A stretch of DNA of 64,000 nt from positions 2,823 through 66,822 of the forward strand of contig JBNARJ010000012.1 in NCBI GenBank assembly GCA_049719515.1. The letters are read 5' to 3'. The position numbers and the translations under genes were made by a program. The stretch comes from Candidatus Saccharicenans sp. GTDB lineage: Bacteria > Acidobacteriota > Aminicenantia > Aminicenantales > Saccharicenantaceae. Positions 1,962 to 14,794 of this stretch are shown piece by piece; position 1 is the first letter of the stretch; each line of letters starts with the position of its first letter. A model generated the notes under the pieces. It was given only the letters and a program-made list of their open reading frames with translations. It did not search any database and was not told the DNA's origin.

Positions 1962-1991
1962 TTGACAATTCCTTTTTTAATTTAATATACT
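1962..1991 (+). promoter_or_regulatory. Sigma70-type promoter of the hydrogenase operon (probably a leaderless transcript)
   Basis: TTGACA (1962-1967), 18-nt spacer, TATACT (1986-1991); ATG at 2000 has no Shine-Dalgarno. Confidence 0.6.
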
Positions 1992-1999
1992 CACTTCTC

Positions 2000-3430
2000 A
2001 TGAAAACCGAGGCTATAACTCTACTCACCATTTTTATTCCGATTTTGGGTTCGCTGCTGGTTCCTCTTGCCGGGTCAATCTCTCCCAAATTACGTTCCGC
2101 CTGGTCAGTTCTGTTAGGAGCCATAACCGCTTTCCTGCCGCTGACGCTTCTACCTCAGGCTTTTAAAGGCGGGGAGATTGTCTGGAGCAAGAGCCTGGCG
2201 CTGGGATTGGATTTCATCCTGATTATTGACCCCCTGTCGATCTTCATGTCGATTGTTTCCTCCTTCATCGGCTTCCTGATTATCATCTACTCGCTCGGCT
2301 ACATCCACCACGAAGAGCACCAGAACGAGTACTACCTGATGGTCATTCTGTTCATCGGCTCGATGATGGGGCTGGTTTTCTCCGGCAACCTGGTATTTAT
2401 GTACCTGTTCTGGGAAATTATCGCCATCGCCTGCTGGAGATTGATCGGCTTCTACCGTCAGAAAGAATACATCCTGCGTGCTGACAAAGCTTTCCTGCTG
2501 ACCTTCGGTGGTGCGGTTGTCATGCTGTTGGGTTTCATCCTCATCTACGGACAGACCGGAACGTTCAACCTGGTGGCCATGCGAGGCGTGGCTGTTCCCG
2601 GCACAGCCGTTCTTCTGATCCTCTTCGGCATGTTCTCCAAATCGGCCACCGTCCCCCTGCACACCTGGTTGCCTGATGCCGGTGTGGCCCCCACCACGGT
2701 GACTGCTTTACTACACGCGGCCGTGCTGGTAAAAATCGGGGTTTATGCTTATGCCAGGTTATTCCTTTACACCTTTAAAATACCAGAGTCCTGGCAGCAG
2801 GCCATCATCATCATGGCGGTTCTGTCCAGCCTTATCGCGGCGGGCGCGGCCACCGTGGAAAATGATTTTAAGCGTATCCTGGCTTACTCCACAATCAGCC
2901 AGATCGGATATATTTTCCTTGGTTTGAGCGTGGCCACCCCGGTAGGTATTACGGGCGGCCTGCTGTATATCCTTATGCACGGACTGGCTAAAGCCGGGCT
3001 TTTCCTGTGTGCTGGCATTGTGCTTCATGCGACACACAAGCGTGATATAAGAGAGATGGGCGGGCTGATTAAAACTATGCCCGTGACGGCCATCTCTTTT
3101 CTTATCTGCGCTTTTTCAGTCATTGGCCTTCCGCCTCTGGGAGGCTTCTTCTCCAAGCTTCTGGTCATCATGGGTACCGTTCAGGCCAATCAGGTCTGGG
3201 TGGCGGCCTTAGCTCTGTTTACCGCTGTTCTGACGATGTTCTACCTCATGCGCACTTTTGCCCTGGTCTTCCTGGGTGACCTGAAGATGGCCGCACCAGA
3301 AAAAACTTTATCCATGGTCAGTGTGGTAGCCATACTGGCTATCCTCTCGGTGCTGGCTGGCCTTTTTGTCTCCTACCCGATGAAACTCGTCCAGCTGGCA
3401 ACAACTCAAATTAGCTGGTGGCTAAAATGA
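2000..3430 (+). CDS. Membrane-bound hydrogenase antiporter-like subunit 1 (NuoL/MrpA/MrpD family, short form)
   Basis: 476 aa, polytopic. Motifs FWEII, PLHTWLPDAGVAPTTVTALLHAA, KRILAYSTISQIGY. Confidence 0.9.
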   Translation: MKTEAITLLTIFIPILGSLLVPLAGSISPKLRSAWSVLLGAITAFLPLTLLPQAFKGGEIVWSKSLALGLDFILIIDPLSIFMSIVSSFIGFLIIIYSLGYIHHEEHQNEYYLMVILFIGSMMGLVFSGNLVFMYLFWEIIAIACWRLIGFYRQKEYILRADKAFLLTFGGAVVMLLGFILIYGQTGTFNLVAMRGVAVPGTAVLLILFGMFSKSATVPLHTWLPDAGVAPTTVTALLHAAVLVKIGVYAYARLFLYTFKIPESWQQAIIIMAVLSSLIAAGAATVENDFKRILAYSTISQIGYIFLGLSVATPVGITGGLLYILMHGLAKAGLFLCAGIVLHATHKRDIREMGGLIKTMPVTAISFLICAFSVIGLPPLGGFFSKLLVIMGTVQANQVWVAALALFTAVLTMFYLMRTFALVFLGDLKMAAPEKTLSMVSVVAILAILSVLAGLFVSYPMKLVQLATTQISWWLK

Positions 3431-5295
3431 CGGCAACGACATTATTATGGACAATACTGTTTCCGGCGGCAGTGGCCATCATTCTGTTCTTAATCCCGGC
3501 CAAGGTAAAACTCGTTCGCGAAGTTCTGGGGGTGCTGGCCTCGGCTGTTTTGCTCTATCTCGGGTTCGCTCTGTTCTCTGTGAAAAACCTTTCTCTGAAG
3601 ACAGACTGGCTCGGGCTGGGCATAAACTTTGACCTGCGGTTGTACCAGTTCTCTGCTTTCATCCTGCTCGCGCTGGCCGGCTTTCTGTTCCTGATCGTCC
3701 TCTACTCCACGGTCAAGATGAAGGACCACCCGAGAGTTCGCGAATATTACCTTTATGTGTTTCTGGCTGCCGCCTTTTCTAACGGTGCGGTTCTGGCTAA
3801 TAATTTCATCTTACTGATTTTCTTCTGGGAAGCTCTGCTCATCACAACCTATGCGTTAGTGACCCTCGGGCTGAAGCCCACCTCACACCGGACGGCCGTT
3901 AAATCGCTGATTATCGGCGGGTTCTGTGATTTTTCCATGATCCTGGGCATCGGGTTGCTCTGGGCTTCTACTGGCACGCTGACCATGGACCAGATTCATG
4001 TCGAACCCCACGGGCTGGCCGCCGCGGCTTTTATTCTGATGATGATCGGCGCCATCGGCAAAGCCGGCGCCATGCCCTTCCACACCTGGATCCCCGATGC
4101 CGCCCTTGATGCACCCGTCAGCTTTATGGCTTTTATGCCCGCTTCCTTTGAAAAACTTCTGGGCATTTATTTGCTGGCCAGGATTGCCCTGGATTTCTTT
4201 GAGCTTAAAGTCGGCAGCGCCATGTCTTTGGTGCTGATGATTATCGGCGCGGCCACCATCGTGCTGGCCGTTTTCATGGCGCTTATTCAGAAAGATTTTA
4301 AGAAACTGCTTTCTTTCCACGCCATCAGCCAGGTGGGTTACATGATCCTGGGCATCGGCACCGCCATTCCCGTGGGAATTGCGGGCGGTGTTTTCCACAT
4401 GATAAACCACGCCATGTACAAATGCGGCCTCTTCCTGAGCGCCGGTTCAGTTGAACATCGCACCGGGACGACCGAACTCAAAAAGCTTGGCGGGCTGGCT
4501 CGCGAGATGCCCTGGACGGCTGCCGGTTTTACTGTTTGCGCCCTGGCCATTTCTGGCGTCTGGCCGCTTAACGGCTTTGTCTCCAAGGAAATGGTTTTTC
4601 ACGGTGCGCTGGAAACCGGACTGCCCATTTTTGCCGTGGCCGCCTGGGTGGGAGCCATTTTTACCTTTGCTTCCTTCCTTAAAGCTGGACATTCAGTATT
4701 TTTCGGCCCGCGCAGCACTGAGGTGGCCAAAACCAAAGAAAGTCCGGCTCCTATCGTGCTGCCCATCCTGATACTGGCAGCCCTGTGTATCACTTTCGGT
4801 GTGTACAACAGGCTCCCGCTGGAAAATTTCATCCAGCCCATTTTGGCCGGCCATGTAGAAGCCGGTGAACACGTGGATTTCACCGCTCATGCCCTGAGTC
4901 TTTTTAACCCGGTGGCCGGCATTTCCATGCTGTGCCTGCTGATTGCTCTCGGGATTCATTTCTTCGGCTGGAAACGCGGCGGGAAAAAAGCTTACCTGGC
5001 ATCCGAACCTATTCATCAGCTGCCTGGCCTGAAAAATCTTTATGACCTGTCCGAAGCAAGGTTCTTTGACCTCTACGAACAGGGCGTTAAATTCCTGCAG
5101 TGGCTGTCGGGCATTCTTTTCCGCTTTATCGACCGGCCGATTGATTTCCTGTACGAAAAAGTGGTTACGGCCATCGGTCGGACTTTTACCGGCCTGCTGC
5201 AGAAAGCGCACAACGGTCAGTATGCAAACTATCTGGCCTGGACTATCGGCGGCCTGGTGGTCGTCGTTTGGATAATACTTCAGTTATTAAAATAG
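3427..5295 (+). CDS. Membrane-bound hydrogenase antiporter-like subunit 2 (NuoL/MrpA-like, with C-terminal lateral helix)
   Basis: PFHTWIPDAA and KKLLSFHAISQVGY motifs; long C-terminal amphipathic segment plus a final TM helix. ATG 3427 overlaps the upstream TGA (ATGA). Confidence 0.9.
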   Translation: MTATTLLWTILFPAAVAIILFLIPAKVKLVREVLGVLASAVLLYLGFALFSVKNLSLKTDWLGLGINFDLRLYQFSAFILLALAGFLFLIVLYSTVKMKDHPRVREYYLYVFLAAAFSNGAVLANNFILLIFFWEALLITTYALVTLGLKPTSHRTAVKSLIIGGFCDFSMILGIGLLWASTGTLTMDQIHVEPHGLAAAAFILMMIGAIGKAGAMPFHTWIPDAALDAPVSFMAFMPASFEKLLGIYLLARIALDFFELKVGSAMSLVLMIIGAATIVLAVFMALIQKDFKKLLSFHAISQVGYMILGIGTAIPVGIAGGVFHMINHAMYKCGLFLSAGSVEHRTGTTELKKLGGLAREMPWTAAGFTVCALAISGVWPLNGFVSKEMVFHGALETGLPIFAVAAWVGAIFTFASFLKAGHSVFFGPRSTEVAKTKESPAPIVLPILILAALCITFGVYNRLPLENFIQPILAGHVEAGEHVDFTAHALSLFNPVAGISMLCLLIALGIHFFGWKRGGKKAYLASEPIHQLPGLKNLYDLSEARFFDLYEQGVKFLQWLSGILFRFIDRPIDFLYEKVVTAIGRTFTGLLQKAHNGQYANYLAWTIGGLVVVVWIILQLLK

Positions 5296-5305
5296 AGGAG
5301 GAGCG

Positions 5306-6784
5306 GTGGTTTTCTCATTCATTGTCATTCCTTTATTGGTAGCTGCTTTTCTGCCTCTCATCGGTAAGTTTTCGAAAAAACTAATTCCGGACGTGCTGAC
5401 CAACGCCGCTCTGGCATTCCTGCTTTTCAACGCGGTCATCCTGGTAAAGCCCATCTTCACGCAGGGAACCATTATCCGGAACGTCAACTGGTTCGGAGAA
5501 CAGGTCAACCTGACGGTGACCCTGGATGCTTTCAACCTGTTCATGCTGTTTACCATCTCGCTGGTCAGCTTGGGGGTAACGCTTTTCTCGGTAGATTATC
5601 TGGAGCATTACGGGCATAAAGCCAATTTCTATGCCCTTCTGATGGTGATGATCGCCGGTATGAACGGCCTCGTGCTGGTCCCCGACCTTTTCTCCATTTA
5701 CCTGTTCCTGGAAGTGGCTGCTGTAGCGTCTTATGCTCTGGTGGCTTTTGGCCTTGGTTATGACGAGCTGGAAGCTTCCTTCAAGTACCTGATGCTATCC
5801 GTGGTGGCTTCCGCCTTCGCCCTGCTGAGCATCACCATCATCTTCGGAATGACGGGCAGCCTGAGCTTTCAGGCCGTCGCCCAGGGGTTGCAGGACCTTC
5901 AGGCACGTTACGTGGTTGGGGTTTGCGTGGCTTTCTTCATCGCGGGGTTCGGGCTGAAAGCGGCCCTGGTTCCTTTCCACGCCTGGTTGCCCGATGCTCA
6001 CCCTTCGGCCCCTGCTCCGATTTCCGCCATGCTGTCCGGATTGCTGATTAAGGTTTCTGGCATCTATGCCCTGTTCAGGATAATTTACAGCGTGGTGGGT
6101 ATGACTCCGGTTCTGACTCAGGTCTTTCTGGCTCTGGGCACCATCTCGATGGTGGTGGCGGCCCTGCTCGCCCTCGGGCAGAAAGACCTCAAGCGGATGC
6201 TGGCCTATTCATCCATCAGTCAGGTGGGCTACATCGTGGTCGGGCTGGCCCTGGGCACTCCTCTCGGTTTACTGGGCGGTCTGTTCCATCTGTTTAACCA
6301 TGCGGTGGCCAAGGGTCTTCTGTTCTTGAATTCAGGCTCGGTTCAGCACATAACCGGCACGAGAAACCTGGAAGAACTCGGCGGGCTGGATAAAAGAGCG
6401 CCAGTCACGGCCACCACCAACCTGATAGGCGCCCTGTCGATTGCCGGCGTGCCACCGCTGGCCGGGTTCTGGAGCAAACTCATCATTATTATGGCTCTGA
6501 TTCAGGCGAAAGAATTTGGTTACGCCCTTATCGCCATCCTGGCCAGTATCCTGACCCTGTGGTATTACCTGCTCATCCAGCGCAAAGCCTTCTTCGGGCC
6601 ATTGAACGAGAATTTAAGACACGTTAAAGAGGCCCCGTTCTGGATGTCAGCCGCCTGCGTCATTCTCGCCCTGGTGGCTATTCTGATAGGTGTGTTCTTC
6701 ACGCCTTTCGTTAAAACCTGGATTTCTCCGGCCGCAGATGTGCTGGCCAAAGGAATTCAACATGTATTAACGTGGGGAATTTAA
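5306..6784 (+). CDS. Membrane-bound hydrogenase antiporter-like subunit 3 (MrpD/MbhH/NuoN-like)
   Basis: LFLEV, EASFKY, PFHAWLPDAHPSAPAPISAMLSG, KRMLAYSSISQVGY motifs. RBS GAGGAGG before GTG. Confidence 0.9.
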   Translation: MVFSFIVIPLLVAAFLPLIGKFSKKLIPDVLTNAALAFLLFNAVILVKPIFTQGTIIRNVNWFGEQVNLTVTLDAFNLFMLFTISLVSLGVTLFSVDYLEHYGHKANFYALLMVMIAGMNGLVLVPDLFSIYLFLEVAAVASYALVAFGLGYDELEASFKYLMLSVVASAFALLSITIIFGMTGSLSFQAVAQGLQDLQARYVVGVCVAFFIAGFGLKAALVPFHAWLPDAHPSAPAPISAMLSGLLIKVSGIYALFRIIYSVVGMTPVLTQVFLALGTISMVVAALLALGQKDLKRMLAYSSISQVGYIVVGLALGTPLGLLGGLFHLFNHAVAKGLLFLNSGSVQHITGTRNLEELGGLDKRAPVTATTNLIGALSIAGVPPLAGFWSKLIIIMALIQAKEFGYALIAILASILTLWYYLLIQRKAFFGPLNENLRHVKEAPFWMSAACVILALVAILIGVFFTPFVKTWISPAADVLAKGIQHVLTWGI

Positions 6785-6785
6785 G

Positions 6786-7280
6786 ATGACCATACAAATA
6801 TTACTGCTGTGTGGCTTGGTGGTCTTTTGCGGGCTGGCCATTCTGGTTCGCGACTTGATTAAAGCCGCTCTTTCCCTGGCGGTGGCCAGCTTGTTCCTCG
6901 GCCTTATCTTCTTTCGCCTGGGAGCGCCTTACGCTGGTGTTTTTGAAATCTCGGTGGTGGCCGGGCTGATTACCGTGCTTTTCGCCCTGACCATCGCCCT
7001 GACCAAGAAGGATGATGAAGTGCAGGAAAATCGTCTGGTGAAAACCATCTTCCCTGTCTTCTTCATCTTATTCCTGGTCATCGACGGGCTGGTCATGAAA
7101 TCACTTCTGAGTAAAGTGCCCGCGCTGCCCGCCTCACCAGAAGGAGGCACCTTCGGCCAGGTCCTCTGGAAGCAAAGAACTTTTGACCTGGTGGCGCAAA
7201 TCGGCGTTATCTTCGCCGGCGTCTTGGCCGTTCTGGCCTTGTTCCGGAAAACAGGGAAAGACGAGGACAAAGATGAGTAA
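6786..7280 (+). CDS. NuoJ-like membrane subunit of the hydrogenase complex
   Basis: 164 aa hydrophobic; LGAPYAGVFEISVVAGLITVLF and a C-terminal GQVLW..FDL helix resemble NuoJ. Confidence 0.8.
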   Translation: MTIQILLLCGLVVFCGLAILVRDLIKAALSLAVASLFLGLIFFRLGAPYAGVFEISVVAGLITVLFALTIALTKKDDEVQENRLVKTIFPVFFILFLVIDGLVMKSLLSKVPALPASPEGGTFGQVLWKQRTFDLVAQIGVIFAGVLAVLALFRKTGKDEDKDE

Positions 7281-7581
7281 CCTTTGGTTTCTTTATTTAT
7301 TCTTTTCGGCTTTATTAATTTTTATCGGCATCTACTGTCTGCTGACCATGCGCAATGTCATCCGGCTGTTTATCGCCGTGGAGATTATTAGCAAAGGCGT
7401 AAGCCTGGCCATTGTGGCCACCGGCGCGGTGAAAAACTCTGTGATCCTGGCCCAGAGCCTGGCAATTACCTACATCGTGGTGGAGGTTAGCCTGGTGGCT
7501 ACCGCCCTGGCCCTGATTATTAACATATACAAAAAGAATAAAAGCCTCGATGTACGTTTATTATCAAAATTGAAGGGATAA
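7273..7581 (+). CDS. NuoK/MrpC-like membrane subunit
   Basis: About 102 aa, 3 TM helices, two conserved Glu (AVEII, VVEVS), ends LSKLKG like NuoK. Start reassigned to ATG 7273. Confidence 0.85.
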   Translation: MSNLWFLYLFFSALLIFIGIYCLLTMRNVIRLFIAVEIISKGVSLAIVATGAVKNSVILAQSLAITYIVVEVSLVATALALIINIYKKNKSLDVRLLSKLKG

Positions 7582-7584
7582 GCC

Positions 7585-7917
7585 ATGAAAGCCATAGACT
7601 TTTTGCTTTCTCCTCCGATTGCTTTCTTCTTTTTCCTGCTGTTTGCTTATCTGCTTTACGCCCTTGGTAACAGTATGGCTCCCAAACTGAAGAAAACTCC
7701 GGGTAAACTCAGCACTTACGCCTGCGGTGAAGACCTGCCCGGGGTTAAGGTGCAGTTTGGTTTTCGCCTCTTTTATCTGTTTGCTCTGTTTTTCACCATC
7801 ATGCACGTGGCGGCTTTGGTAATAGCCACCGTGCCGGCTGGGAAAATAGTGTTTTTCGCAATAATATATCTGGCCATGATTTTTCTGTCCATCATGGCCC
7901 TGGTCTCGAGGAGCTAA
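7585..7917 (+). CDS. NuoA-like membrane subunit
   Basis: 110 aa, 3 TM helices, loop motif YACGE (NuoA YECG-like). Confidence 0.8.
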   Translation: MKAIDFLLSPPIAFFFFLLFAYLLYALGNSMAPKLKKTPGKLSTYACGEDLPGVKVQFGFRLFYLFALFFTIMHVAALVIATVPAGKIVFFAIIYLAMIFLSIMALVSRS

Positions 7918-7918
7918 C

Positions 7919-8344
7919 ATGCTGGCAAAACTAACCGAATGGTCAAGATTAAAATCACCCTGGATTCTCCATCTGAATACCGGTGCCTGCAACGCCTGTG
8001 ACATTGAGGTGGTGGCGGCCCTTACTCCTCGGTTTGATGTGGAAAGATTTGGCATTCTGCTCAAGGCGACGCCCCGGCATGCTGATGTCATTATTTGCAC
8101 CGGCCCGGCCACCCGCCAGATGAAGGACCGCTTAATCAGGATTTATGAGCAGACGCCCGACCCGAAGTTCGTTATCGCGGTCGGGGCCTGCGCCATGTCC
8201 GGCTGTGTTTACCGCGGCGCTTATAACGTGATCGGCGGCATTGACCAGGTGATTCCGGTAGATGTGTACGTTCCAGGCTGCCCGGTGCGGCCTGATGCGG
8301 TGATAGATGGAGTGGTAAAACTCCTGAACAAAATCAAGGGATGA
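7919..8344 (+). CDS. Group 4 [NiFe]-hydrogenase small subunit (NuoB/MbhJ-like)
   Basis: GACNACDIE (CxxC, hydrogenase-type rather than the complex I CC), TPRHADV, VGACA, VPGCPVRP. Confidence 0.95.
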   Translation: MLAKLTEWSRLKSPWILHLNTGACNACDIEVVAALTPRFDVERFGILLKATPRHADVIICTGPATRQMKDRLIRIYEQTPDPKFVIAVGACAMSGCVYRGAYNVIGGIDQVIPVDVYVPGCPVRPDAVIDGVVKLLNKIKG

Positions 8345-8351
8345 GGGAAAA

Positions 8352-8825
8352 ATGAACGACCAAATGCTGATAGATAAAATCACCGACAGATGGAAAGACC
8401 AGGTCGGGGAGATTACCAACCCGGCTCCACGTCGCCTGTTTGTCAGAGTAGAGGTGGCCAGGCTGCTGGACTTTATCGGCTGGCTCAACCAGGAAGAGGG
8501 TTTTACCCATCTGTCCACCATAAGCGGAGTCGACCTGGGCCAGAATTTCGAACTGCTCTACCATTTTGCCAATGATTTCACCTGTCTGACGGTTCGCACA
8601 GAGATTCCGCGGGATAATCCGGTTCTGCCCAGCATCTGCAGCATCATCCCTGGGGCCATCCTGTACGAGCGAGAACTGCAGGATATGTTTGGCATTAAGG
8701 TGGAAGGGCTGCCGGACCCCCGGCCGCTGCTTCTGCCCGACGACTGGCCGGCAGGAAATTACCCGCTGCGCAAGGACTGGAAGTACGAACGTCCGGCCGA
8801 AGTCATTCCGGGAGGTAAAAAATGA
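8352..8825 (+). CDS. NuoC/MbhK-like subunit
   Basis: HLSTISGVD, LYERELQDMFGI, LLLPDDWP, YPLRKD motifs. Confidence 0.92.
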   Translation: MNDQMLIDKITDRWKDQVGEITNPAPRRLFVRVEVARLLDFIGWLNQEEGFTHLSTISGVDLGQNFELLYHFANDFTCLTVRTEIPRDNPVLPSICSIIPGAILYERELQDMFGIKVEGLPDPRPLLLPDDWPAGNYPLRKDWKYERPAEVIPGGKK

Positions 8826-10024
8826 AGTTCCAGATACCCATAGGACCACAGCATCCTGCCTTAAAAGAACCCATCGGTCTGCGGGTGGTGGTCGAAGGCG
8901 AAATCATCAGGGATGCGGACCTGCGCCTGGGTTATAACCACCGGGGCCTTGAAAAACTGGCCGAGCAGAAGACCTGGATTCAGAACATCTACCTGACCGA
9001 ACGAATCTGCGGCATCTGCTCTCATTCCCATACAACCTGCTACGTCCAGGGCGTGGAAAAGTTGATGGAACTCGAAGTTCCCAAGAGGGGGCTTTACATC
9101 CGCACGCTGGTCTCTGAACTGGAAAGGGTTCACAGCCACCTGCTGTGGTTGGGCGTGGCCGGTCATGAAGCCGGCTTCGACAGCTTCTTCATGTACACCT
9201 GGCGGGACCGCGAAATAGTGATGGACATCCTGGAAACAATTTCCGGAAACCGCGTCCATTATGGCATCAACACCATCGGCGGAGTGCGTCGCGACCTGGA
9301 CGAGCTGCAGGTCAAAAAGATTCTTGATTCTCTGGACACTCTGAGAAAGCGGAGTGAATACTACCAGCACCTGGGCACGAACGAACCGAGTTTCGTGGCC
9401 AGGTTAGCGGGGGTCGGGTATCTCTCTAAGGAGGACGCCATTGCCCTGTGTGCCGTGGGTCCAACTCTGCGCGCTTCCGGCGTGCCGCGCGATGTCCGTA
9501 AAGACGACCCGTATGCCGTTTATGATGAGCTGCCGTTTGAGGTCTGCACAGCTGAAACATGCGACGTTCTCGGGCGGACGGTGGTCAGAATCAAGGAGCT
9601 CTTCCAGAGCTATAACATGATTGAATACCTGCTTAAGAACCTGCCCGCCGGGCCGATTGCCGTGAGAGCCCCCCGCCGAGCGAAGCCCAACGAAGTGGTC
9701 AGCCGTTATGAGGCGCCCCGCGGCGAAAACATCCATTACATAAAAAGTAACGGGACAGATAAACCTGAAAGATTGAAGGTTAGAGCGCCCACCCTGGGCA
9801 ATTACGCGGCTACCATCAAAATGCTCAAGAACGGCTTCATTGCTGATGTACCGCTGATTTTCGCCGCGATTGACCCCTGTATCTGCTGCGCCGAGCGCGC
9901 TGTTGCCCTGGTGGATGCCAGGACAGGTGAAGAAAAAGTGGTACCGATGACCGTCCTGAAACAACGCAGCCAGAAATTTTCTGGATTAAACGTAAGAAAG
10001 AGGGAAGTAGAATGGCCACTCTGA
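8822..10024 (+). CDS. Group 4 [NiFe]-hydrogenase large subunit (NuoD/MbhL-like)
   Basis: GPQHP, HRGLEK, L1 motif ERICGICSHSH, L2 motif DPCICCAER followed by a C-terminal extension of about 40 aa. Confidence 0.95.
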   Translation: MKFQIPIGPQHPALKEPIGLRVVVEGEIIRDADLRLGYNHRGLEKLAEQKTWIQNIYLTERICGICSHSHTTCYVQGVEKLMELEVPKRGLYIRTLVSELERVHSHLLWLGVAGHEAGFDSFFMYTWRDREIVMDILETISGNRVHYGINTIGGVRRDLDELQVKKILDSLDTLRKRSEYYQHLGTNEPSFVARLAGVGYLSKEDAIALCAVGPTLRASGVPRDVRKDDPYAVYDELPFEVCTAETCDVLGRTVVRIKELFQSYNMIEYLLKNLPAGPIAVRAPRRAKPNEVVSRYEAPRGENIHYIKSNGTDKPERLKVRAPTLGNYAATIKMLKNGFIADVPLIFAAIDPCICCAERAVALVDARTGEEKVVPMTVLKQRSQKFSGLNVRKREVEWPL

Positions 10025-10983
10025 AAACACTGATTTATCTGATAATTTATCCAGGCCTTCTCTTTTTATTTATCTATTCAACCTTCATAGAATGGTACGA
10101 CCGAAAACTCTATGCCCGGTTCCAGAACCGCATGGGGCCGACCCACACCGGTAAAGCGGGTATTCTGCAGCCGATCGCCGACTTTTTCAAGCTGATGGCC
10201 AAAGAAGATATAACTCCAGAAAGAGCTGATAAGGGCATGTTTTCCGCCCTGCCCGCTTTTGGACTGGCCATTGTGGCCACCGCCATGCTGCTGCTTCCGG
10301 TCTGGAACTACAGCCTGGACAGACCCTCTTTTACATCATTTAACGGAGATATCATCGTTCTCCTCTATCTTTTAAGCCTGCCGACCTTTATTTTCTTCCT
10401 GGCCGGCTGGTCTTCTACCAACCTTTTTTCCACCGTGGGGGCGGCTCGCGTGCTGACCATGCTTTTCGGTTATGAAGTGCCGCTTTTCCTTTCCGTGCTG
10501 AGCCCGGCCATCCTGGCCGGCTCGTGGCGGCTGGCAGAAATTGCCGCCTTTTACCGTGAACACCCGTTGCTCATCCTGGTCAACCTGCTCGGCTTTGTCA
10601 TTGCCTTAATCTGCGTGCAGGCCAAGCTGGAAAGAACACCGTTCGACATCCCGCATGCGGAAACAGAAATTGTCGGCGGTACCTTTACCGAATATTCGGG
10701 CAAAAAACTGGCCATCTTCCGCCTGATGATGGACGTCGAGATGGTGGTGGCCGCCGGGCTGCTGGCCACGGTTTTTCTGGGCGGCTTTCCAACCAATCCC
10801 TGGCTCGGCCTGATTTCCTTCATTTTAAAAACCATGTTCGTAATTTTCTTCCTCAGCCTTATACGAGCCACCACTTCAAGAATCAGAGTGGACCAGGTGG
10901 TGGCCTTTTCCTGGAAATACCTGGCTCCGCTGGCCGTGCTGCAGCTTTTAATCGTCATCATGGTTAAGGGGTTAATCTCATGA
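10012..10983 (+). CDS. NuoH/MbhM-like membrane subunit
   Basis: DRKLYARFQNRMGP, LQPIADFFKL, RTPFDIPHAETEIVGGTFTEYSG motifs. Confidence 0.93.
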   Translation: MATLKTLIYLIIYPGLLFLFIYSTFIEWYDRKLYARFQNRMGPTHTGKAGILQPIADFFKLMAKEDITPERADKGMFSALPAFGLAIVATAMLLLPVWNYSLDRPSFTSFNGDIIVLLYLLSLPTFIFFLAGWSSTNLFSTVGAARVLTMLFGYEVPLFLSVLSPAILAGSWRLAEIAAFYREHPLLILVNLLGFVIALICVQAKLERTPFDIPHAETEIVGGTFTEYSGKKLAIFRLMMDVEMVVAAGLLATVFLGGFPTNPWLGLISFILKTMFVIFFLSLIRATTSRIRVDQVVAFSWKYLAPLAVLQLLIVIMVKGLIS

Positions 10984-11378
10984 GGATCGGCGCTTTTATC
11001 CCGGAACTTTTTCGTCATCTATTCAGAAAACCGGCTACGGTGGATTATCCATTCACCAAACTGGAAGTCCCTTCCGGCTTCCGCGGTTCTCCTTATCTTA
11101 AACCCGAAACCTGCATTGTTTGCCGGGCCTGTGAGCGGGATTGTCCGGCTGAGGCTATCGAAATTCTCTCAATCAACGAAGCTGAAAAAAAATTCAAGAT
11201 GATCATTCACAATGACCGTTGCATTCACTGCGCGCAATGCGTGGATTCCTGCCCGACCGATGCCATGCAGATGGACACCAGGTTCGAAATATCCGACTAT
11301 GACCGGCACAACCTCAAGATGGAATGGGAATACGTCCGGGCGGTGGTCAAGCCCAAATCAGCCGAGCCTAAAGCTTGA
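10980..11378 (+). CDS. NuoI/MbhN-like 2x[4Fe-4S] ferredoxin subunit
   Basis: Two CxxCxxCxxxCP motifs (CIVCRACERDCP, CIHCAQCVDSCP). Confidence 0.93.
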   Translation: MRIGAFIPELFRHLFRKPATVDYPFTKLEVPSGFRGSPYLKPETCIVCRACERDCPAEAIEILSINEAEKKFKMIIHNDRCIHCAQCVDSCPTDAMQMDTRFEISDYDRHNLKMEWEYVRAVVKPKSAEPKA

Positions 11379-11471
11379 TTTATTTAAAGCAGTAAAATTT
11401 TTCTTGCCTGCGAGATGCCGATAGATTAAATTAGCTACTTGGTAAATCAGGAGAAAGAGGTAATAAGGCTA

Positions 11472-11975
11472 ATGACCTCCGACTGGCAAAATTACCTGAA
11501 AAAAGAATTGCGGGGGATGGAAAAAATCGTCATCTTGGGAACAGGGAACGCCCTGGAAGCCGATGATGCCGCCGGACTTTATGTGGCCAGCTTGCTTGAT
11601 GGCAAGCTGTCCAAATACCAGAAGTCCCGCATTAAAGTACTGAGGGCTTACGAGATAATCGATATCTACTTAAAAAAGATTAAAAGAATCAAGCCCAGCC
11701 ACCTGCTAATCGTCGACGCCGTGGATTTAAAGAAAAAGCCGGGAACTATTATGGTCGAAAGGCTCGATATAGAAAAAAAGCGAAAAAGAAAGATGGGGGG
11801 AGAATTCGCCAGCTTCATGGAAAAGCTGGCCAGTGAAGCTGCCTGCAAGATTTATATCATAGGCATTCAGCCGCAGAGGCTTGATTTTGGCCACCCGATA
11901 ACACCCGTGATAAAAGACGCCTGCCGCCTGCTGGCTGATTTTTTGTTTTCTCTTGTGCCAAGAAAGACTAAATAA
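11472..11975 (+). CDS. hycI: Hydrogenase maturation endopeptidase (HycI-like)
   Basis: ILGTGNALEADDAAG and LIVDAVD motifs; IIGIQPQRLDFG. The start could be 11439 or 11472. Confidence 0.8.
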   Translation: MTSDWQNYLKKELRGMEKIVILGTGNALEADDAAGLYVASLLDGKLSKYQKSRIKVLRAYEIIDIYLKKIKRIKPSHLLIVDAVDLKKKPGTIMVERLDIEKKRKRKMGGEFASFMEKLASEAACKIYIIGIQPQRLDFGHPITPVIKDACRLLADFLFSLVPRKTK

Positions 11976-12204
11976 TTTTCTATCCTAACTAAAATTAGTG
12001 TTAGCGCGGATACAACAAACAGCCCTCAATTACTTATGACCTAAAACAATATAATTAGCTAATAATTTATCCACTGCCTGGAAGTTAGCATGATAGGGGA
12101 CAGCCCTTCGGCCGGCTAACCGGACATTAAATTAGTGCTGACTTATTTGATAAGATTGCTCTTGAAATTTTGTCTGCAAGAAGCCCGGGAAAAAACCAGC
12201 TTCT

Positions 12205-13302
12205 TCAAATCTTCATCGGCATCAAAATATACAGGTAAGTGCCTTTTTCTTCCGGCTCTGGCTTTATCAACACGGCACTGTTTTCATCTTTTATCTCAAA
12301 GCGCACCTTTTCTGAGGACACTGTTCCCAGAAAGTCAAGCAGGTATTGAGCGTTAAACCCTATCTCCAGCTCTTTACCCTGATATTCTACCTCGAGTTTA
12401 TCCCGCGCTTCTCCTATTTCCGGGTTAGAAGAAAACATCCTTAATTCATCTTTCTCTATCTCGAATTTTATGCCCTTCGATTTTTCAGAGGAAAGCAGAG
12501 AAACTCTTTTGATGGCATTTATCAAGTTTTCGCGGTTTATCAAAAGTTTGTTCGGGTTGTCTTTCGGGATAACCGCCTGATAATTAGGAAATTTACTCTC
12601 TATGATTCTTGAAATGAGCATCCGGTTATTGACCCTGAAAAACAAGCTGTTATCGTCAAAATCAAAATCAATTTTTTCATCTTCAAATTTCTTCAGCTCG
12701 TTCAGCGTTTTTTTCGAGACGATCTGGTTTATTTCTTCATCCGTAATCAAATTCTCAAATTCGCGGCGATTATAAGCCAGGCGGTGCCCATCAGTGCTGA
12801 CCAGCTCGAGCTGATTTTTTCTGACCGACAGCAGAGCGCCGTTGAGGTAATATCTCTGCTCCTGAGTAATGGCATAGAGCACACAATCAATCATGTCCTT
12901 AAATTCGTTTAAATTAAAACTAATATTTCTTTCAAAACTGCATTCTGGAATGGGCGGGAAATCCTCTTCCTGAGCGGTAACAATTTTAATTTCACTTTCT
13001 CCGCTTTTAACAATCAGATAATCTTCCTTGCGCACAAAATCTATCGGCCTGTCTTCAGGCAGCAATTTAATAAAATCAAAAAGTTTACGACCGTTTACGG
13101 CGGCCACACCTTCTTTCTTTATTTCAGCCTCAAAATATGTTCTTAAACCAACCTCCAGGTCGGTCCCCATCATTACCACCCTGTCCTTTTCAGCTTTTAT
13201 CAGGACATTGGACAGTATAGGCATGGTCGTCCTTTTTTCCACAATACCCTGAAGGAGGCTTAACTCGTTAATAATATTGGATTTACTGGCTGAAAAATTC
13301 AT
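12205..13302 (-). CDS. dnaN: DNA polymerase III beta sliding clamp
   Basis: TTMPILSNVLI, GTDLEV, STDGHRL, FPNYQAVIP, YILMPMKI; directly downstream of dnaA. Confidence 0.98.
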   Translation of the reverse strand: MNFSASKSNIINELSLLQGIVEKRTTMPILSNVLIKAEKDRVVMMGTDLEVGLRTYFEAEIKKEGVAAVNGRKLFDFIKLLPEDRPIDFVRKEDYLIVKSGESEIKIVTAQEEDFPPIPECSFERNISFNLNEFKDMIDCVLYAITQEQRYYLNGALLSVRKNQLELVSTDGHRLAYNRREFENLITDEEINQIVSKKTLNELKKFEDEKIDFDFDDNSLFFRVNNRMLISRIIESKFPNYQAVIPKDNPNKLLINRENLINAIKRVSLLSSEKSKGIKFEIEKDELRMFSSNPEIGEARDKLEVEYQGKELEIGFNAQYLLDFLGTVSSEKVRFEIKDENSAVLIKPEPEEKGTYLYILMPMKI

Positions 13303-13416
13303 TTTTCCACCTTTCCTTGGTTTTTATATATCAATTAAAATTATAAATATCCAGTTAAAATAAAACAATAAAAATCATTGCAAAAGTGAAAAATTTTCCT
13401 ATCTGCTTGATTTTTC

Positions 13417-14748
13417 TCATTGTAAGAGGTTAATCAGAGTGTTGATTTCTCTGTTAATTTCCGGGTCTTCCTTGATTAATTTCTCAATTTTCCTGATGCT
13501 GTGGAGAACTGTCGTGTGGTGTTTGCCTCCAAACTTTTTTCCTATTTCTGGTAAAGAACTATCAGTCAGCTCTTTTGCCAGATACATGGCCACCTGTCTG
13601 GGGAAGGCCACCCGCGGAGAATTATTTTTCGACTTTAACTCGGTCGGTTTCAATTTGTAGTGGTTGCTTACAACTTTCTGTATTTTTTCAACAGTGATGA
13701 CATTGGCTGAGGCGTCAAGCAGGCCTTTTAAGGCTTCTTTGGCCAGCTCTAAATCAATCTTTGCTCCTTTCAAAGAAGCATAAGCGATAACTCTTCTCAG
13801 ATAGCCTTCCAGCTCTCTTATGTTTGAGTGAACCTTATCAGCGATATACAGGGCGACCGGTTCAGGCAGAACCACGTCCTCCAGCTCAGCTTTCTTTTTT
13901 AGAATGGCGATTCTGGTCTCGATGTCGGGAGGTTTCAGGTCGGCAATCAACCCCCATTCAAACCTGGAGCGAAACCTGTCTTCCAAGTGAGGAATGTCCT
14001 TTGGCGGACAGTCGCTGGAAATGACAATCTGTTTTTGAGAATCATATAAGTGATTGAAAGTATGGAAGAATTCTTCCTTGGTTCTTTCTCTGCCTGAAAT
14101 GTAATGGATGTCATCCATAAGTAATACGTCAACCGCGCGGTATTTCTGACGGAATTCAATTATCTTTCCGTACTGGAGGTGGTTGATCAAATCATTCATG
14201 AACCTTTCGGTCGTCACGTACATGACTTTAAGCTTGGCATTGTTGGCCATAATATAATGGCCGATGGCGTTCATCAGGTGAGTTTTTCCAAGCCCGGCGC
14301 CGCCGTAAATGTACAGGGGGTTGTAAGATTTAGCCGGGTTTTTGGCCACGGCCAGAGCGGCAGCATGAGCAAACTGATTGCATGAACCAACCACAAAATT
14401 TTCAAAAGTATAGGTCGGGTTTAGGTTGGCGGCCTGGACAATAGATTTTTCTATCTTTCGTTCCTCCGGGGAGTTCCTTAAGAAAGAATTTGGCGTATCG
14501 TCATATATGTATTTTATGTCAAAAACCTTATCGAAAAGCTGCCGCGAACACTCGTTTATCAGACGCGAATAGTGAAAACTGAGCCAGTCTTTAAAATATG
14601 AGTTAGGAACCTTAATGTACAGAGTGTCGCCTTCTTCCCCTATGTAAGTGGTAGGCTCAAACCAGGTGGAAAAAGCATTCTCGTCGACGCGGTTTTTTAA
14701 CTCCGCCAGTAATTTATTCCAGATATTAGCTTTATATTCTTGTTTCAT
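13417..14748 (-). CDS. dnaA: Chromosomal replication initiator DnaA
   Basis: LNPTYTFENFVVG, YGGAGLGKTHL (Walker A), DVLLMDDI, HHTTVLHS. Start reassigned to ATG 14748 (MKQEYKANIW). Confidence 0.98.
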   Translation of the reverse strand: MKQEYKANIWNKLLAELKNRVDENAFSTWFEPTTYIGEEGDTLYIKVPNSYFKDWLSFHYSRLINECSRQLFDKVFDIKYIYDDTPNSFLRNSPEERKIEKSIVQAANLNPTYTFENFVVGSCNQFAHAAALAVAKNPAKSYNPLYIYGGAGLGKTHLMNAIGHYIMANNAKLKVMYVTTERFMNDLINHLQYGKIIEFRQKYRAVDVLLMDDIHYISGRERTKEEFFHTFNHLYDSQKQIVISSDCPPKDIPHLEDRFRSRFEWGLIADLKPPDIETRIAILKKKAELEDVVLPEPVALYIADKVHSNIRELEGYLRRVIAYASLKGAKIDLELAKEALKGLLDASANVITVEKIQKVVSNHYKLKPTELKSKNNSPRVAFPRQVAMYLAKELTDSSLPEIGKKFGGKHHTTVLHSIRKIEKLIKEDPEINREINTLINLLQ

Positions 14749-14760
14749 GTCTGCCCGATA

Positions 14761-14794
14761 GATTTCCACAAAGATTTCCACAGTTGTGGAAATC
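14761..14794. promoter_or_regulatory. Three identical DnaA-box-like 10-mers (GATTTCCACA): candidate oriC / dnaA autoregulatory site
   Basis: GATTTCCACA at 14761-14770 and 14773-14782, inverted TGTGGAAATC at 14785-14794, followed by an AT-rich tract (about 14800-14895). Confidence 0.7.

What the first reader, a model, noticed from the sequence alone, without database searches (positions are those of the whole stretch)
2000..11975. [NiFe]-hydrogenase with the full 11-subunit complex I core architecture
Seen: three antiporter-like subunits (one with a NuoL-like lateral helix) plus homologues of NuoJ, K, A, B, C, D, H and I, with A-B-C-D-H-I in complex I order. The large subunit keeps both NiFe CxxC motifs, the small subunit has CxxC, and a maturation protease follows. 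There are no MrpE/F/G-like Na+ module genes and no NuoEFG. Established: Pyrococcus Mbh has one antiporter-like subunit plus an Mrp Na+ module, and an 11-subunit core has been proposed as the complex I ancestor. Inference: a ferredoxin-driven, H2-evolving pump with up to three ion channels, an intermediate between group-4 hydrogenases and complex I (probably HydDB 4d/4g-like). Related clusters may already be catalogued.
Basis: partly seen in the sequence, partly recalled or inferred. Interest (0 to 1): 0.7.

Follow-up and report, generated by a model that had tools for sequence, protein, structure and literature searches.

The report
Complex-I-shaped nickel-iron hydrogenase operon
This is a real 12-gene operon of an uncultured Aminicenantes bacterium for a membrane-bound nickel-iron hydrogenase built from the same 11 subunits as the core of respiratory complex I; the enzyme type is biochemically untested but already described in archaea ("Hfo", HydDB group 4g), and the same operon occurs in many bacterial phyla.

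Summary
Window 2000-11975 (+ strand) holds twelve tightly packed genes. They encode three antiporter-like subunits, homologues of NuoJ, K, A, B, C, D, H and I, and a HycI-type protease. One antiporter-like subunit has a predicted NuoL/MrpA-type lateral helix.

The large subunit keeps both Ni-Fe motifs and a 41-residue cleavable tail. The small subunit has the hydrogenase-type CxxC. All three antiporter-like subunits and the NuoK homologue keep the charged residues of the complex I proton paths. There are no MrpEFG, NuoEFG or formate/CO-dehydrogenase genes in the operon.

The subunits look mosaic. B, C, D and I score closer to Mbh/Hyc/Hyf. H and A score closer to complex I. J is unsplit like NuoJ.

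The same gene order was found in 47 species-representative genomes labelled with about 11 named bacterial phyla. Rearranged versions occur in Chloroflexota, Caldisericota and Methanoregula. Bathyarchaeia carry it in canonical nuo order.

That archaeal form was published in 2021 as "Hfo", an Fpo-like 11-subunit [NiFe] hydrogenase of HydDB subgroup 4g. The window's operon is therefore a bacterial member of a known, uncharacterised kind.

The most likely function is ferredoxin-driven H2 evolution coupled to ion translocation. Energetics allow only about 1-2 ions per H2, so complex-I-like 4-ion pumping is unlikely.

The parts
1962..1991 (+). Near-consensus sigma-70-type promoter (TTGACA-N18-TATACT, 11/12). 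It ends 8 nt before the first ATG and no Shine-Dalgarno sequence lies between, so the transcript may be leaderless.
   Evidence: consensus match only, no transcript-start data
2000..3430 (+). Antiporter-like subunit 1 (476 aa), NuoL/HyfD-like core without a C-terminal extension. Keeps E139, K214, H327, K331 and K386.
   Evidence: Pfam PF00361 246 bits and PF00662; E. coli HyfD 209 and NuoL 195 bits; channel residues conserved in 47 genomes
3418..5295 (+). Antiporter-like subunit 2 (625 aa) with a NuoL/MrpA-type C-terminal extension: TM15 at 498-520, lateral helix at about 538-597, TM16 at 602-624. Keeps E138, D171, K215, K246, H327/H331/K335 and K390/E391.
   Evidence: NCBIfam NuoL model matched 8-621; AlphaFold pLDDT 89.9; Foldseek full-length hits to MrpA 7qru_A and NuoL 8e9i_L at TM 0.81/0.82; residues
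5306..6784 (+). Antiporter-like subunit 3 (492 aa), MrpD/NuoN-like. Keeps E136, K218, K249, H328/H332/K336 and K391.
6786..7280 (+). NuoJ-type subunit (164 aa, 5 TM), unsplit. The N-terminal half resembles MbhD/MbsD in sequence.
   Evidence: Pfam PF00499 and PF13244; PDB hits; AlphaFold model and Foldseek give full-length NuoJ/Nqo10/ND6 matches while MbhD covers only 73 columns
7273..7581 (+). NuoK/MrpC-type subunit (102 aa, 3 TM). Both NuoK membrane glutamates (E. coli E36 and E72 equivalents) are conserved.
   Evidence: Pfam PF00420 66.5 bits; alignment
7585..7917 (+). NuoA/ND3-type subunit (110 aa, 3 TM) with a conserved Y-x-CGE loop motif. E. coli NuoA D79/E81 are replaced by a conserved His and by Ala.
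7919..8344 (+). Hydrogenase small subunit, NuoB-like (141 aa). Cluster ligands C24, C27, C91 and C121, with hydrogenase-type CxxC rather than the NuoB CC.
   Evidence: Pfam PF01058 110 bits; HyfI 132 and HycG 131 bits against NuoB 104; CN[AG]CD[IV]E (CAGCDIE in one) in every small subunit read in the related loci
8352..8825 (+). NuoC-like subunit (157 aa), not fused to the large subunit.
   Evidence: Pfam PF00329 109 bits
8822..10024 (+). [NiFe] large subunit, NuoD-like (400 aa). L1 RICGICSHSH (C63, C66), L2 DPCICCAER (C353, C356), conserved E16, and a 41-aa C-terminal tail.
10012..10983 (+). NuoH-type membrane subunit (323 aa, 8 TM) with the complex-I-type long TM1-2 loop and conserved E-channel motifs.
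   Evidence: Pfam PF00146 294 bits; Nqo8 181 and E. coli NuoH 148 bits against MbhM 97, HycD 68 and MbsM 67; alignment
10980..11378 (+). NuoI/MbhN/HyfH-type 2x[4Fe-4S] subunit (132 aa), the presumed ferredoxin-facing electron entry point.
   Evidence: HyfH 77, HycF 53 and NuoI 48 bits
11472..11975 (+). HycI-type maturation endopeptidase (167 aa from ATG 11472; the longest ORF starts at TTG 11439).
   Evidence: Pfam PF01750 E 1.4e-8; HycI 36 bits; orthologues are 160-175 aa; GGAGAAAGAGG lies upstream of ATG 11472

Best explanation
[quoted passage not shown] Its 11 structural subunits correspond one-to-one to the NuoA, B, C, D, H, I, J, K and L/M/N-type core of complex I. It is the bacterial counterpart of the archaeal 'Hfo' enzyme.

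Proposed mechanism:
1. Reduced ferredoxin from fermentation donates electrons to the two [4Fe-4S] clusters of the NuoI-like subunit (inferred).
2. The electrons pass through the single cluster of the small subunit to the Ni-Fe site of the large subunit, where protons are reduced to H2. The cofactor ligands are shown; the chemistry is inferred.
3. The large subunit is matured by removal of its 41-residue tail by the operon's HycI-type protease (inferred from the HycE precedent).
4. Charge changes at the active site are passed through the NuoH/A/J/K 'E-channel' to three antiporter-like subunits, which a NuoL-type lateral helix may clamp together (the clamping role is inferred), so that H+ (or Na+) is moved out of the cell. 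The conserved residues are shown; ion movement is inferred.

The ferredoxin-to-H+ span is only about 50-200 mV. That pays for about 1-2 ions per H2, so the three modules cannot all pump as in complex I. Some may exchange or idle, or the enzyme may run with a low or variable stoichiometry.
For: - Domain assignments for all 12 genes.
- Ni-Fe L1/L2 motifs, the small-subunit CxxC and the conserved Glu16 are present in the window. L2 is present in every related large subunit read (about 80 loci), L1 in all but one, and CxxC in every small subunit read.
- The cleavable tail (33-50 aa) is present in all 47 same-order loci, and the protease gene was found in 35 of them.
- TM5 Glu, TM7 Lys, TM8 Lys/His and TM12 Lys are kept in all three antiporter-like subunits in 44-47 of 47 genomes. 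Both NuoK Glu residues and the NuoH motifs are kept.
- The NuoL/MrpA-like extension is modelled with high confidence.
- Genes overlap or abut, and the whole order is conserved across about 11 named phyla. All three antiporter-like subunits therefore belong to the complex.
- There is no FdhF, CooS/F, HycB/HyfA or NuoEFG gene in the operon or its flanks.
- The large-subunit tree groups it with Hfo-type clusters and apart from Mbh and Hyc/Hyf. Loh et al. 2021 describe Hfo with the same features and report that HydDB places its large subunit in 4g.
- Aminicenantales MAGs are described as fermenters with H2-evolving group 4 hydrogenases.
- Short contigs at >=99% identity from RNA-Seq-labelled sludge runs lie within the operon (weak evidence).
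Against: - No biochemical or structural data exist for any 4g enzyme.
- The donor, the direction and the ion are all inferred.
- HydDB was not run.
- The rest of the genome could not be searched, so ferredoxin-producing enzymes, hyp genes, Rnf, a separate Mrp and quinone synthesis are unknown.
- Three intact antiporter-like modules plus an E-channel imply more ion paths than the free energy of ferredoxin-to-H2 can pay for.
- The transcript evidence is thin and could be DNA carry-over.
Confidence: 0.8

Rival explanations
1. Same complex, opposite physiological direction. It uses the membrane potential to drive the uphill reduction of ferredoxin by H2, like Eha/Ehb, and as Loh et al. proposed for Hfo in acetogenic Bathyarchaeia.
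For: Loh et al. favour this direction for Hfo. Group 4 enzymes are reversible in principle (my own knowledge). Several ion paths per 2 e- would make uphill ferredoxin reduction feasible at low H2 or a low membrane potential.
Against: Aminicenantes MAGs are described as fermenters with H2-evolving hydrogenases. A fermenter needs a sink for reduced ferredoxin. No CO2-fixation or other ferredoxin-consuming genes lie in the window. Direction cannot be read from sequence.
Confidence: 0.15
2. Part of the membrane arm works as a built-in Mrp-like H+/Na+ exchanger. Redox-driven H+ export by one module is then converted to Na+ export by the others, giving a net sodium-motive hydrogenase as in Mbh. This is a variant of the main mechanism and not exclusive of it.
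For: The 625-aa subunit's best structural match is MrpA. Its best sequence matches in the PDB are MbhH, MbsH', MrpD and MrpA. The J subunit's N-terminal half is closest to MbhD/MbsD. The energetics leave room for only 1-2 net charges per H2 (inference).
Against: The MrpE/F/G (MbhA-C) subunits are absent from the operon; by my own knowledge they form part of the proposed Na+ path in Mrp and Mbh. No Na+-site residues were identified here. Whether Na+-dependent ATP synthase or Rnf is present could not be checked.
Confidence: 0.25
3. It is really a quinone-reducing respiratory complex (H2:quinone or ferredoxin:quinone oxidoreductase) of the 11-subunit complex I type that happens to retain the cysteines.
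For: The NuoH and NuoA homologues, which form the quinone tunnel in complex I, are complex-I-like. NuoH keeps the long TM1-2 loop.
Against: The quinone-head-group ligands of T. thermophilus Nqo4 (His38 and Tyr87; residue roles from my own knowledge) align with Lys15 and with the CGIC Ni-Fe motif. NuoB-type tandem Cys is replaced by hydrogenase-type CxxC. A cleavable tail and a dedicated protease are conserved. Purifying selection on L1/L2 across about 80 loci only makes sense for a Ni-Fe site.
Confidence: 0.03
4. The complex-I-like membrane part is not ancestral. It was acquired by module swapping: a hydrogenase peripheral arm grafted onto the NuoH/A/J/K/L-M-N arm of a complex I. The operon would then be a chimera, not an evolutionary intermediate. 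This concerns origin only, not function.
For: The similarity pattern is split. B, C, D and I are nearer Hyc/Hyf/Mbh, while H and A are nearer complex I. Gene order differs between bacterial, Chloroflexota-type and archaeal versions, so rearrangements have occurred.
Against: The same split pattern is expected if Mbh/Hyc membrane subunits simply diverged faster. All order variants fall in one large-subunit clade, though with only moderate support (SH-aLRT 89). No broad NuoH/NuoA phylogeny could be built here.
Confidence: 0.25

Closest known systems
Hfo, the Fpo-like 11-subunit [NiFe] hydrogenase of Bathyarchaeia (Loh, Herve & Brune 2021, PMC7886697; HydDB subgroup 4g, their 4g-6)
   Same: The same 11 subunit types. 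L1/L2 Ni-Fe motifs retained. No Mbh-type Na+ module and no NuoEFG/FpoF. Bathyarchaeial clusters of this type fetched here (L066, L077) share 54-56% identity in the large subunit, 65-70% in the small subunit and 41-45% in NuoH. They fall in the same large-subunit clade. Neither has been characterised biochemically.
   Different: The host is a bacterium. Gene order is antiporter x3 - J - K - A - B - C - D - H - I - protease instead of the nuo/fpo order A-B-C-D-H-I-J-K-L-M-N. The protease is part of the operon. NuoJ is a single 164-aa protein, whereas the archaeal loci show an 82-86 aa J fragment. The bacterial sequences form their own clade (SH-aLRT 90). The three antiporter paralogues are not clearly one-to-one with those of Hfo.
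Pyrococcus furiosus membrane-bound hydrogenase Mbh (HydDB 4d; PDB 6CFW)
   Same: The most similar solved large subunit (293 bits). Shares the peripheral-arm order B-C-D-H-I, the expected ferredoxin-to-H2 chemistry with ion translocation, and an MbhD-like N-terminal half of J.
   Different: Mbh has one antiporter-like subunit plus the MrpEFG-like MbhA-C module, a split NuoJ (MbhD + MbhE), and a large subunit that ends at the L2 motif with no tail (alignment). Its MbhM is far less similar to this H subunit than complex I NuoH is (97 against 181 bits). No PDB match of the A subunit to MbhI was found.
E. coli hydrogenase 4 (Hyf) and hydrogenase 3 (Hyc, PDB 7Z0S), HydDB 4a
   Same: Hyf also has three antiporter-like subunits. 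The large subunit has a cleavable C-terminal tail and a HycI protease. HycE scores 292 bits and HyfD 209 bits to antiporter subunit 1.
   Different: Hyf/Hyc have a fused NuoC-D large subunit, extra ferredoxin-like subunits (HycB/HyfA) and a formate dehydrogenase partner. No NuoA or NuoJ homologue is recognised in them (none scored in the E. coli Hyf/Hyc set; Moparthi & Hagerhall 2011). Their NuoH homologues are much more distant (68-74 bits). They fall in a different large-subunit clade.
11-subunit ('NuoEFG-less') complex I, Fpo-like and NDH-1 complexes
   Same: Identical subunit inventory. The NuoH, NuoA, NuoJ, NuoK and NuoL-type lateral-helix features match complex I.
   Different: Those enzymes lack the C-terminal Cys pair, bind quinone or methanophenazine with His/Tyr residues, and have tandem-Cys NuoB. 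Here the Ni-Fe site, the CxxC small subunit and the maturation protease are present (Moparthi & Hagerhall 2011).
Pyrococcus furiosus Mbs/Mbx sulfane-sulfur reductase (PDB 6U8Y) and Mrp antiporter (PDB 7QRU, 6Z16)
   Same: The 625-aa subunit matches end to end an NCBIfam model (NF006419, 613 aa, 'NADH dehydrogenase subunit M') of about the same length and name as MbsH' (618 aa). That this model represents MbsH' is my guess. The direct MbsH' match covers only residues 20-466 (166 bits). Its fold is closest to MrpA, lateral helix included.
   Different: The Mbs large subunit has lost the Ni-Fe ligands (my own knowledge) and scores only 183 bits. Mrp has no redox module. Both carry MrpE/F/G-type subunits, which are absent here.

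Membership tests
[quoted passage not shown] | Large subunit with L1 (RxCGxCxxxH) and L2 (DPCxxCxxR/H) Ni-Fe ligand motifs | tested here: met
   RICGICSHSH at 61-70 and DPCICCAER at 351-359. L2 is present in every related large subunit read (about 80 loci) and L1 in all but one. PF00374 and PF00346 both hit.
[quoted passage not shown] | Short NuoB-like small subunit with a single proximal [4Fe-4S] cluster bound by four Cys, including CxxC | tested here: met
   141 aa; C24, C27, C91 and C121. PF01058 110 bits. CN[AG]CD[IV]E (CAGCDIE in one) conserved.
[quoted passage not shown] | NuoH-like and antiporter-like membrane subunits encoded with the catalytic subunits | tested here: met
[quoted passage not shown] | Assignment to a subgroup (4a-4i) by the HydDB classifier | not testable with these tools
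   HydDB is not available. 4g is inferred because the nearest named relatives are Hfo-type clusters, whose large subunit Loh et al. report HydDB places in 4g. 4g itself is polyphyletic.
[quoted passage not shown] | Hydrogenase activity with a low-potential donor | not testable with these tools
   Needs biochemistry.
Hfo-type 11-subunit complex-I-like [NiFe] hydrogenase (Loh et al. 2021) | All 11 subunits homologous to NuoA, B, C, D, H, I, J, K, L, M, N together with an intact Ni-Fe site | tested here: met
   Every window subunit has a homologue in the Bathyarchaeia loci L066 and L077.
Hfo-type 11-subunit complex-I-like [NiFe] hydrogenase (Loh et al. 2021) | Absence of the Mbh Na+ module (MbhA-C, F) and of NuoEFG/FpoF | tested here: met
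   No unassigned gene or gap in 2000-11975. The flanks are a GNAT gene and dnaN. Absence from the rest of the genome was not testable because the genome search was shut.
Hfo-type 11-subunit complex-I-like [NiFe] hydrogenase (Loh et al. 2021) | Gene order identical to fpo/nuo (A-B-C-D-H-I-J-K-L-M-N) | tested here: not met
   The order is ant-ant-ant-J-K-A-B-C-D-H-I-protease. The canonical order is seen only in the archaeal loci L066 and L077.
Hfo-type 11-subunit complex-I-like [NiFe] hydrogenase (Loh et al. 2021) | Large subunit inside the Hfo (4g-6) clade | tested here: inconclusive
   It falls in a clade with the Bathyarchaeia sequences (SH-aLRT 89), but in a separate bacterial subclade (SH-aLRT 90). 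This is a quick IQ-TREE run, and the reference Hfo sequences of the paper were not included.
Mbh (HydDB 4d) | MrpE/F/G-like MbhA-C module, split NuoJ (MbhD/E), one antiporter-like subunit | tested here: not met
   None of these holds: there are three antiporter-like subunits, an unsplit 5-TM J, and no MbhA-C homologues.
Respiratory complex I / Fpo / NDH-1 | NuoD without Ni-Fe cysteines and with quinone-binding His/Tyr; NuoB with tandem Cys | tested here: not met
   Nqo4 His38 aligns with Lys15, and Tyr87 with Gly64 inside CGIC. The small subunit has CNAC.
Respiratory complex I / Fpo / NDH-1 | Seven-subunit membrane arm (A, H, J, K plus three antiporter-like subunits, one with a lateral helix and TM16) with conserved channel residues | tested here: met
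Formate hydrogenlyase-type Hyc/Hyf (HydDB 4a) | Fused NuoC-D large subunit, HycB/HyfA polyferredoxin and FdhF partner | tested here: not met
   C and D are separate genes. No extra ferredoxin or formate dehydrogenase gene lies in or beside the operon. It falls in a different clade.

The most novel reading that the evidence does not exclude
[quoted passage not shown] Its complex-I-type H/A/J/K/L-M-N arm would then be ancestral and not grafted on. It would be a natural complex I membrane arm driven by H+/H2 chemistry instead of quinone chemistry, at a driving force too small for 4 H+/2e-. That would make both the coupling mechanism and the stoichiometry flexibility of complex-I-type pumps directly testable.
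Probability: 0.2. Interest if true: 0.8.

Novelty: new member of a known kind. Interest (0 to 1): 0.45.

Why it matters
Complex I is thought to descend from a membrane-bound [NiFe] hydrogenase. In 2011 an 11-subunit, Ni-Fe-bearing ancestor was postulated but no living example was known. An archaeal example (Hfo) was reported in 2021.

This window, with the 47 same-order and roughly 10 rearranged loci retrieved here, indicates that the same enzyme type is common in anaerobic bacteria. The phyla include Aminicenantes, Omnitrophota, Elusimicrobiota, Planctomycetota, Bacillota, Spirochaetota and Acidobacteriota. In published surveys these clusters are usually labelled only 'group 4g' or 'Mbh-Mrp type'.

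No member has been purified or solved. A structure and an ions-per-H2 measurement would test two things: how a full complex-I-type membrane arm is driven without quinone, and how it works at a very small driving force.

For this particular window the result is confirmatory, not new.

Tried and rejected
- **Whole-genome search.** The rest of the window holds only housekeeping genes.
- **Context of the two next-nearest cluster representatives.** Contigs for P0122 and P0123 were too short to show the gene neighbourhood.
- **Lateral helix on a different paralogue than in complex I.** In the quick tree antiporter subunit 1, not subunit 2, grouped with NuoL. An AU test did not reject a single clade of all extension-bearing subunits (p 0.22), so I dropped this idea.
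- **Quinone reductase reading.** Rejected on active-site residues.
- **Transcription evidence.** RNA-Seq-labelled sludge runs gave only a dozen 150-290 nt contigs at depth 2-4. Runs X10 and X11 look like one data set filed twice. This is weak and not used as proof.
- **Literature.** Ten searches found no paper that describes the bacterial operon as an 11-subunit complex-I-type hydrogenase. It is mentioned only generically as 'group 4', '4g linked to Mrp' or 'Mbh-Mrp type'. The Saccharicenans genome paper is not in the library, so I could not see how it describes the cluster.
- **Ancestral versus grafted membrane arm.** A proper NuoH/NuoA phylogeny could not be built because no broad set of named complex I, Fpo, Ech or Coo sequences was obtainable with the remaining caps.

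Full report
**What is in the sequence**

On the + strand between 2000 and 11975 there are twelve open reading frames that overlap or abut. Spacings are -13 to +10 nt, with 93 nt before the last gene. A near-consensus promoter, TTGACA-N18-TATACT, ends 8 nt before the first ATG. The flanks are a divergent GNAT acetyltransferase gene and a convergent dnaN-dnaA pair, so the unit is self-contained.

Pfam and NCBIfam assign the genes as follows:
- three Proton_antipo_M proteins of 476, 625 and 492 aa;
- a 164-aa protein that hits both NuoJ (PF00499) and MbhD (PF13244);
- NuoK (102 aa);
- a 110-aa protein at the threshold of NuoA (PF00507, 23.2 bits against a cut-off of 23.3);
- NuoB-like (141 aa), NuoC-like (157 aa) and NuoD/NiFeSe_Hases (400 aa);
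- NuoH (323 aa), a 2x[4Fe-4S] NuoI-like protein (132 aa) and a HycI endopeptidase.

**The host**

The large subunit is 77-91% identical to more than a hundred proteins from metagenome-assembled genomes. Those that carry a name are labelled Candidatus Saccharicenans or Candidatus Aminicenantes. The window also carries bacterial dnaA, dnaN, relA/spoT and dnaB. Near-identical DNA is found in sludge and hot-spring metagenomes.

**It is a hydrogenase, not a complex I**

- The large subunit has L1 RICGICSHSH and L2 DPCICCAER. It also has a Glu16 that is invariant in the alignment, in the HPxxxEP segment.
- The positions that bind the quinone head group in T. thermophilus Nqo4 (His38 and Tyr87; residue roles from my own knowledge) align with Lys15 and with Gly64 inside the CGIC motif.
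- The small subunit has four Cys (C24, C27, C91, C121) with hydrogenase-type CxxC instead of the tandem Cys of NuoB.
- After the Arg of L2 the protein continues for 41 residues. That tail is the kind of substrate removed by a HycI-type protease, and such a protease closes the operon.
- In 47 related loci the tail is 33-50 residues long, and the protease gene was found in 35 of them.
- L2 is conserved in every related large subunit examined (about 80 loci) and L1 in all but one. The small-subunit CxxC is conserved wherever a small subunit was read.

**The membrane arm is of the complex I type and looks functional**

- The 625-aa subunit matches an NCBIfam NuoL model from end to end.
- An AlphaFold model built on 42 orthologues (pLDDT 89.9, pTM 0.86) shows TM15, a lateral helix at about residues 538-597 and a terminal TM16.
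- That model superposes full-length on MrpA and on NuoL chains (TM 0.81/0.82 to 8e9i_L). Subunits without the extension, MrpD and MbhH, cover only the core.
- Aligned with E. coli NuoL/M/N, all three antiporter-like subunits keep the TM5 Glu, TM7 Lys, TM8 Lys/His and TM12 Lys in 44-47 of 47 genomes. The 625-aa subunit also has equivalents of the NuoL-specific D178 and D400.
- The NuoK homologue keeps both membrane glutamates. The NuoH homologue keeps the NuoH signature motifs and the long TM1-2 loop that Hyf/Hyc lack.
- The NuoA assignment is weak for one sequence but holds for the family. Thirty-three of 40 orthologues hit PF00507, and the family profile finds only NuoA/ND3/NdhC chains in the PDB.
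- The J subunit is an unsplit 5-TM protein whose model matches NuoJ/Nqo10/ND6 over its whole length. MbhD matches only the first 73 columns.
- Hydropathy gives 5, 3, 3 and 8 membrane segments for J, K, A and H, as in complex I.

**The similarity pattern is mosaic**

- Against solved structures the large subunit scores 293 bits to MbhL, 292 to HycE, 210 to Nqo4 and 183 to MbsL.
- Against E. coli, subunits B, C, D and I score higher to Hyc/Hyf than to Nuo.
- The H subunit is the opposite: Nqo8 181 and E. coli NuoH 148 bits, against MbhM 97, HycD 68 and MbsM 67.
- Subunits J and K find only Nuo partners in E. coli, and A finds only NuoA/ND3 in the PDB.
- The N-terminal half of J is nearest MbhD/MbsD.
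- The antiporter-like subunits are nearest MbhH, MbsH', MrpD/A and HyfB/D, followed by NuoL.

**Distribution**

I labelled their ORFs with the window's proteins.

- Forty-seven loci have exactly the window's order. Their NCBI labels span Aminicenantota, Omnitrophota, Elusimicrobiota, Planctomycetota, Bacillota, Spirochaetota, Acidobacteriota, Myxococcota, Actinomycetota, Margulisiibacteriota and Pseudomonadota, plus nine with no named phylum. Some labels look wrong, for example 'uncultured Eubacteriales' carrying operons 72-78% identical to Aminicenantes.
- Chloroflexota (including the cultured Longilinea arvoryzae KOME-1), Caldisericota and a Methanoregula genome have J-K-antiporters-A-B-C-D-H-I-protease.
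- Bathyarchaeia have A-B-C-D-H-I-J-K followed by antiporter-like genes (three in L066), which is the canonical nuo/fpo order.
- A metagenome contig whose large subunit is 54% identical shows the same order over the stretch it covers, from the truncated second antiporter gene onward.
- In a search of 1.84 billion cluster representatives, the best full-length match was only 54% identical. The family is therefore distinct but large.

**Phylogeny**

- In a large-subunit tree of 135 sequences (quick IQ-TREE run, LG+C20), all three gene-order types fall in one clade (SH-aLRT 89). That clade is separate from the one holding P. furiosus MbhL and E. coli HycE/HyfG (SH-aLRT 87).
- The bacterial same-order loci lie in a 68-row subclade (SH-aLRT 90). 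Within it, the Aminicenantes sequences sit with one Omnitrophota, one Edwardsbacteria and two unnamed bacterial sequences (SH-aLRT 96).
- In a tree of the antiporter-like subunits, each of the three paralogues is monophyletic across phyla (support 99 or higher). The triplication therefore predates the spread of the operon.
- Their one-to-one relation to NuoL/M/N is unresolved. An AU test does not reject a single origin of all extension-bearing subunits (p 0.22).

**Comparison with the literature**

- Moparthi and Hagerhall (2011) proposed an 11-subunit, Ni-Fe-bearing last common ancestor. They stated that no hydrogenase has NuoA or NuoJ, and that all 11-subunit complex I enzymes lack the C-terminal Cys pair.
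- Loh, Herve and Brune (2021) described 'Hfo' in Bathyarchaeia as the first [NiFe] hydrogenase made of the same 11 subunits in the same gene order. It has L1/L2 motifs, lacks the Mbh Na+ module, and HydDB places it in subgroup 4g. They noted that no 4g enzyme has been characterised.
- Subgroup 4g is heterogeneous and polyphyletic.
- Bacterial clusters appear only generically. They are called 'group 4g linked to Mrp' in Omnitrophota and Cloacimonadota, 'Mbh-Mrp type' in Elusimicrobia, and 'group 4 NiFe-hydrogenases' in Aminicenantales MAGs.
- Within the searchable library I found no explicit description of the bacterial 11-subunit form.
- Earlier notes of this scan on other Aminicenantes genomes reached the same reading. 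They are not independent evidence.

**Mechanism and energetics**

The shown facts are the cofactor ligands, the channel residues, the predicted lateral helix, the cleavable tail with its protease, and the conserved synteny.

The inferred steps are these. Reduced ferredoxin donates to the NuoI-like subunit, because no other donor module is encoded. Electrons reach the Ni-Fe site and reduce protons. The energy is passed through H/A/J/K to the antiporter-like subunits.

From established values (my own calculation), E0' of H+/H2 is -414 mV. It rises to about -300 mV at 10 Pa H2. Ferredoxin lies at about -450 to -500 mV. The span is therefore roughly 50-200 mV, or 10-40 kJ per mol H2. One charge moved against 150-180 mV costs 15-17 kJ per mol. 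Only 1-2 ions per H2 are affordable.

Four complex-I-like paths cannot all pump outward. Some modules may exchange H+ for Na+ as in Mrp and Mbh, or the enzyme may work with a low or variable stoichiometry, or it may run in reverse as Loh et al. suggested for Hfo. These alternatives cannot be separated by sequence.

**Verdict**

The operon is a bacterial member of a known but experimentally untouched kind. Its value lies in the breadth of the family and in what a structure or an ion-per-H2 measurement would teach, not in this window being unusual.

Noticed in passing
window 1962-2002: The promoter-like TTGACA-N18-TATACT ends 8 nt before the ATG of the first gene, with no Shine-Dalgarno sequence in between. 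The hydrogenase mRNA may therefore be leaderless or nearly so.
   Followed up: partly
L038:7236-14614 and L056:7770-13050: Two relatives of the large subunit keep the L1/L2 motifs but sit in clusters with no membrane subunit at all (NuoB-C-D-I-like genes plus a HycI protease). In a Dehalococcoidales MAG the cluster is flanked by an MvhD/FlpD polyferredoxin, a MetF C-terminal domain protein and an HdrA-like flavoprotein. In a Bathyarchaeia MAG it is flanked by HypA, a NUBPL-like ATPase and an FrhB-like protein with CBS domains. This looks like a soluble group-4-derived hydrogenase module wired to Hdr/Mvh/F420-type partners.
   Followed up: partly
L081 (Longilinea arvoryzae KOME-1), L084, L087: Chloroflexota carry a variant with the order J-K-antiporter-antiporter-A-B-C-D-H-I-protease. 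It has only two antiporter-like subunits (one about 580 aa and NuoL-like, one about 500 aa). L. arvoryzae is cultured, so it could serve for biochemistry.
   Followed up: partly
window 7585-7917: The NuoA-like subunit family has a conserved motif FT..HV in place of the NuoA FDVE segment. E. coli D79 is replaced by an almost invariant His, and E81 is not conserved (Ala in the window). The loop motif Y-x-CGE is conserved.
   Followed up: partly
L012, L013, L015, L019: MAGs labelled 'uncultured Eubacteriales' (Bacillota) carry operons whose large subunits are 72-78% identical to the window and nest among Aminicenantes sequences. The taxonomic labels of these records are probably wrong.
   Followed up: no
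window 11975-14850: The operon ends about 230 bp from the convergent dnaN-dnaA pair, that is, next to the presumed replication origin. First-reader notes on other genomes with look-alike operons describe the same neighbourhood.
   Followed up: no
L080 (Methanoregula sp. PtaB.Bin085): The locus carries a 1094-aa antiporter-like ORF, possibly a fusion of two modules. Upstream of the full cluster there is a second, partial NuoC-D-I-like set.
   Followed up: no
L066, L077, L072, L075 (Bathyarchaeia and other archaeal loci): In the archaeal nuo-order clusters the J homologue detected is only 71-86 aa (about half of NuoJ), whereas all bacterial loci have an unsplit J of about 160 aa. The second half may be a separate gene that my labelling did not pick up.
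   Followed up: no
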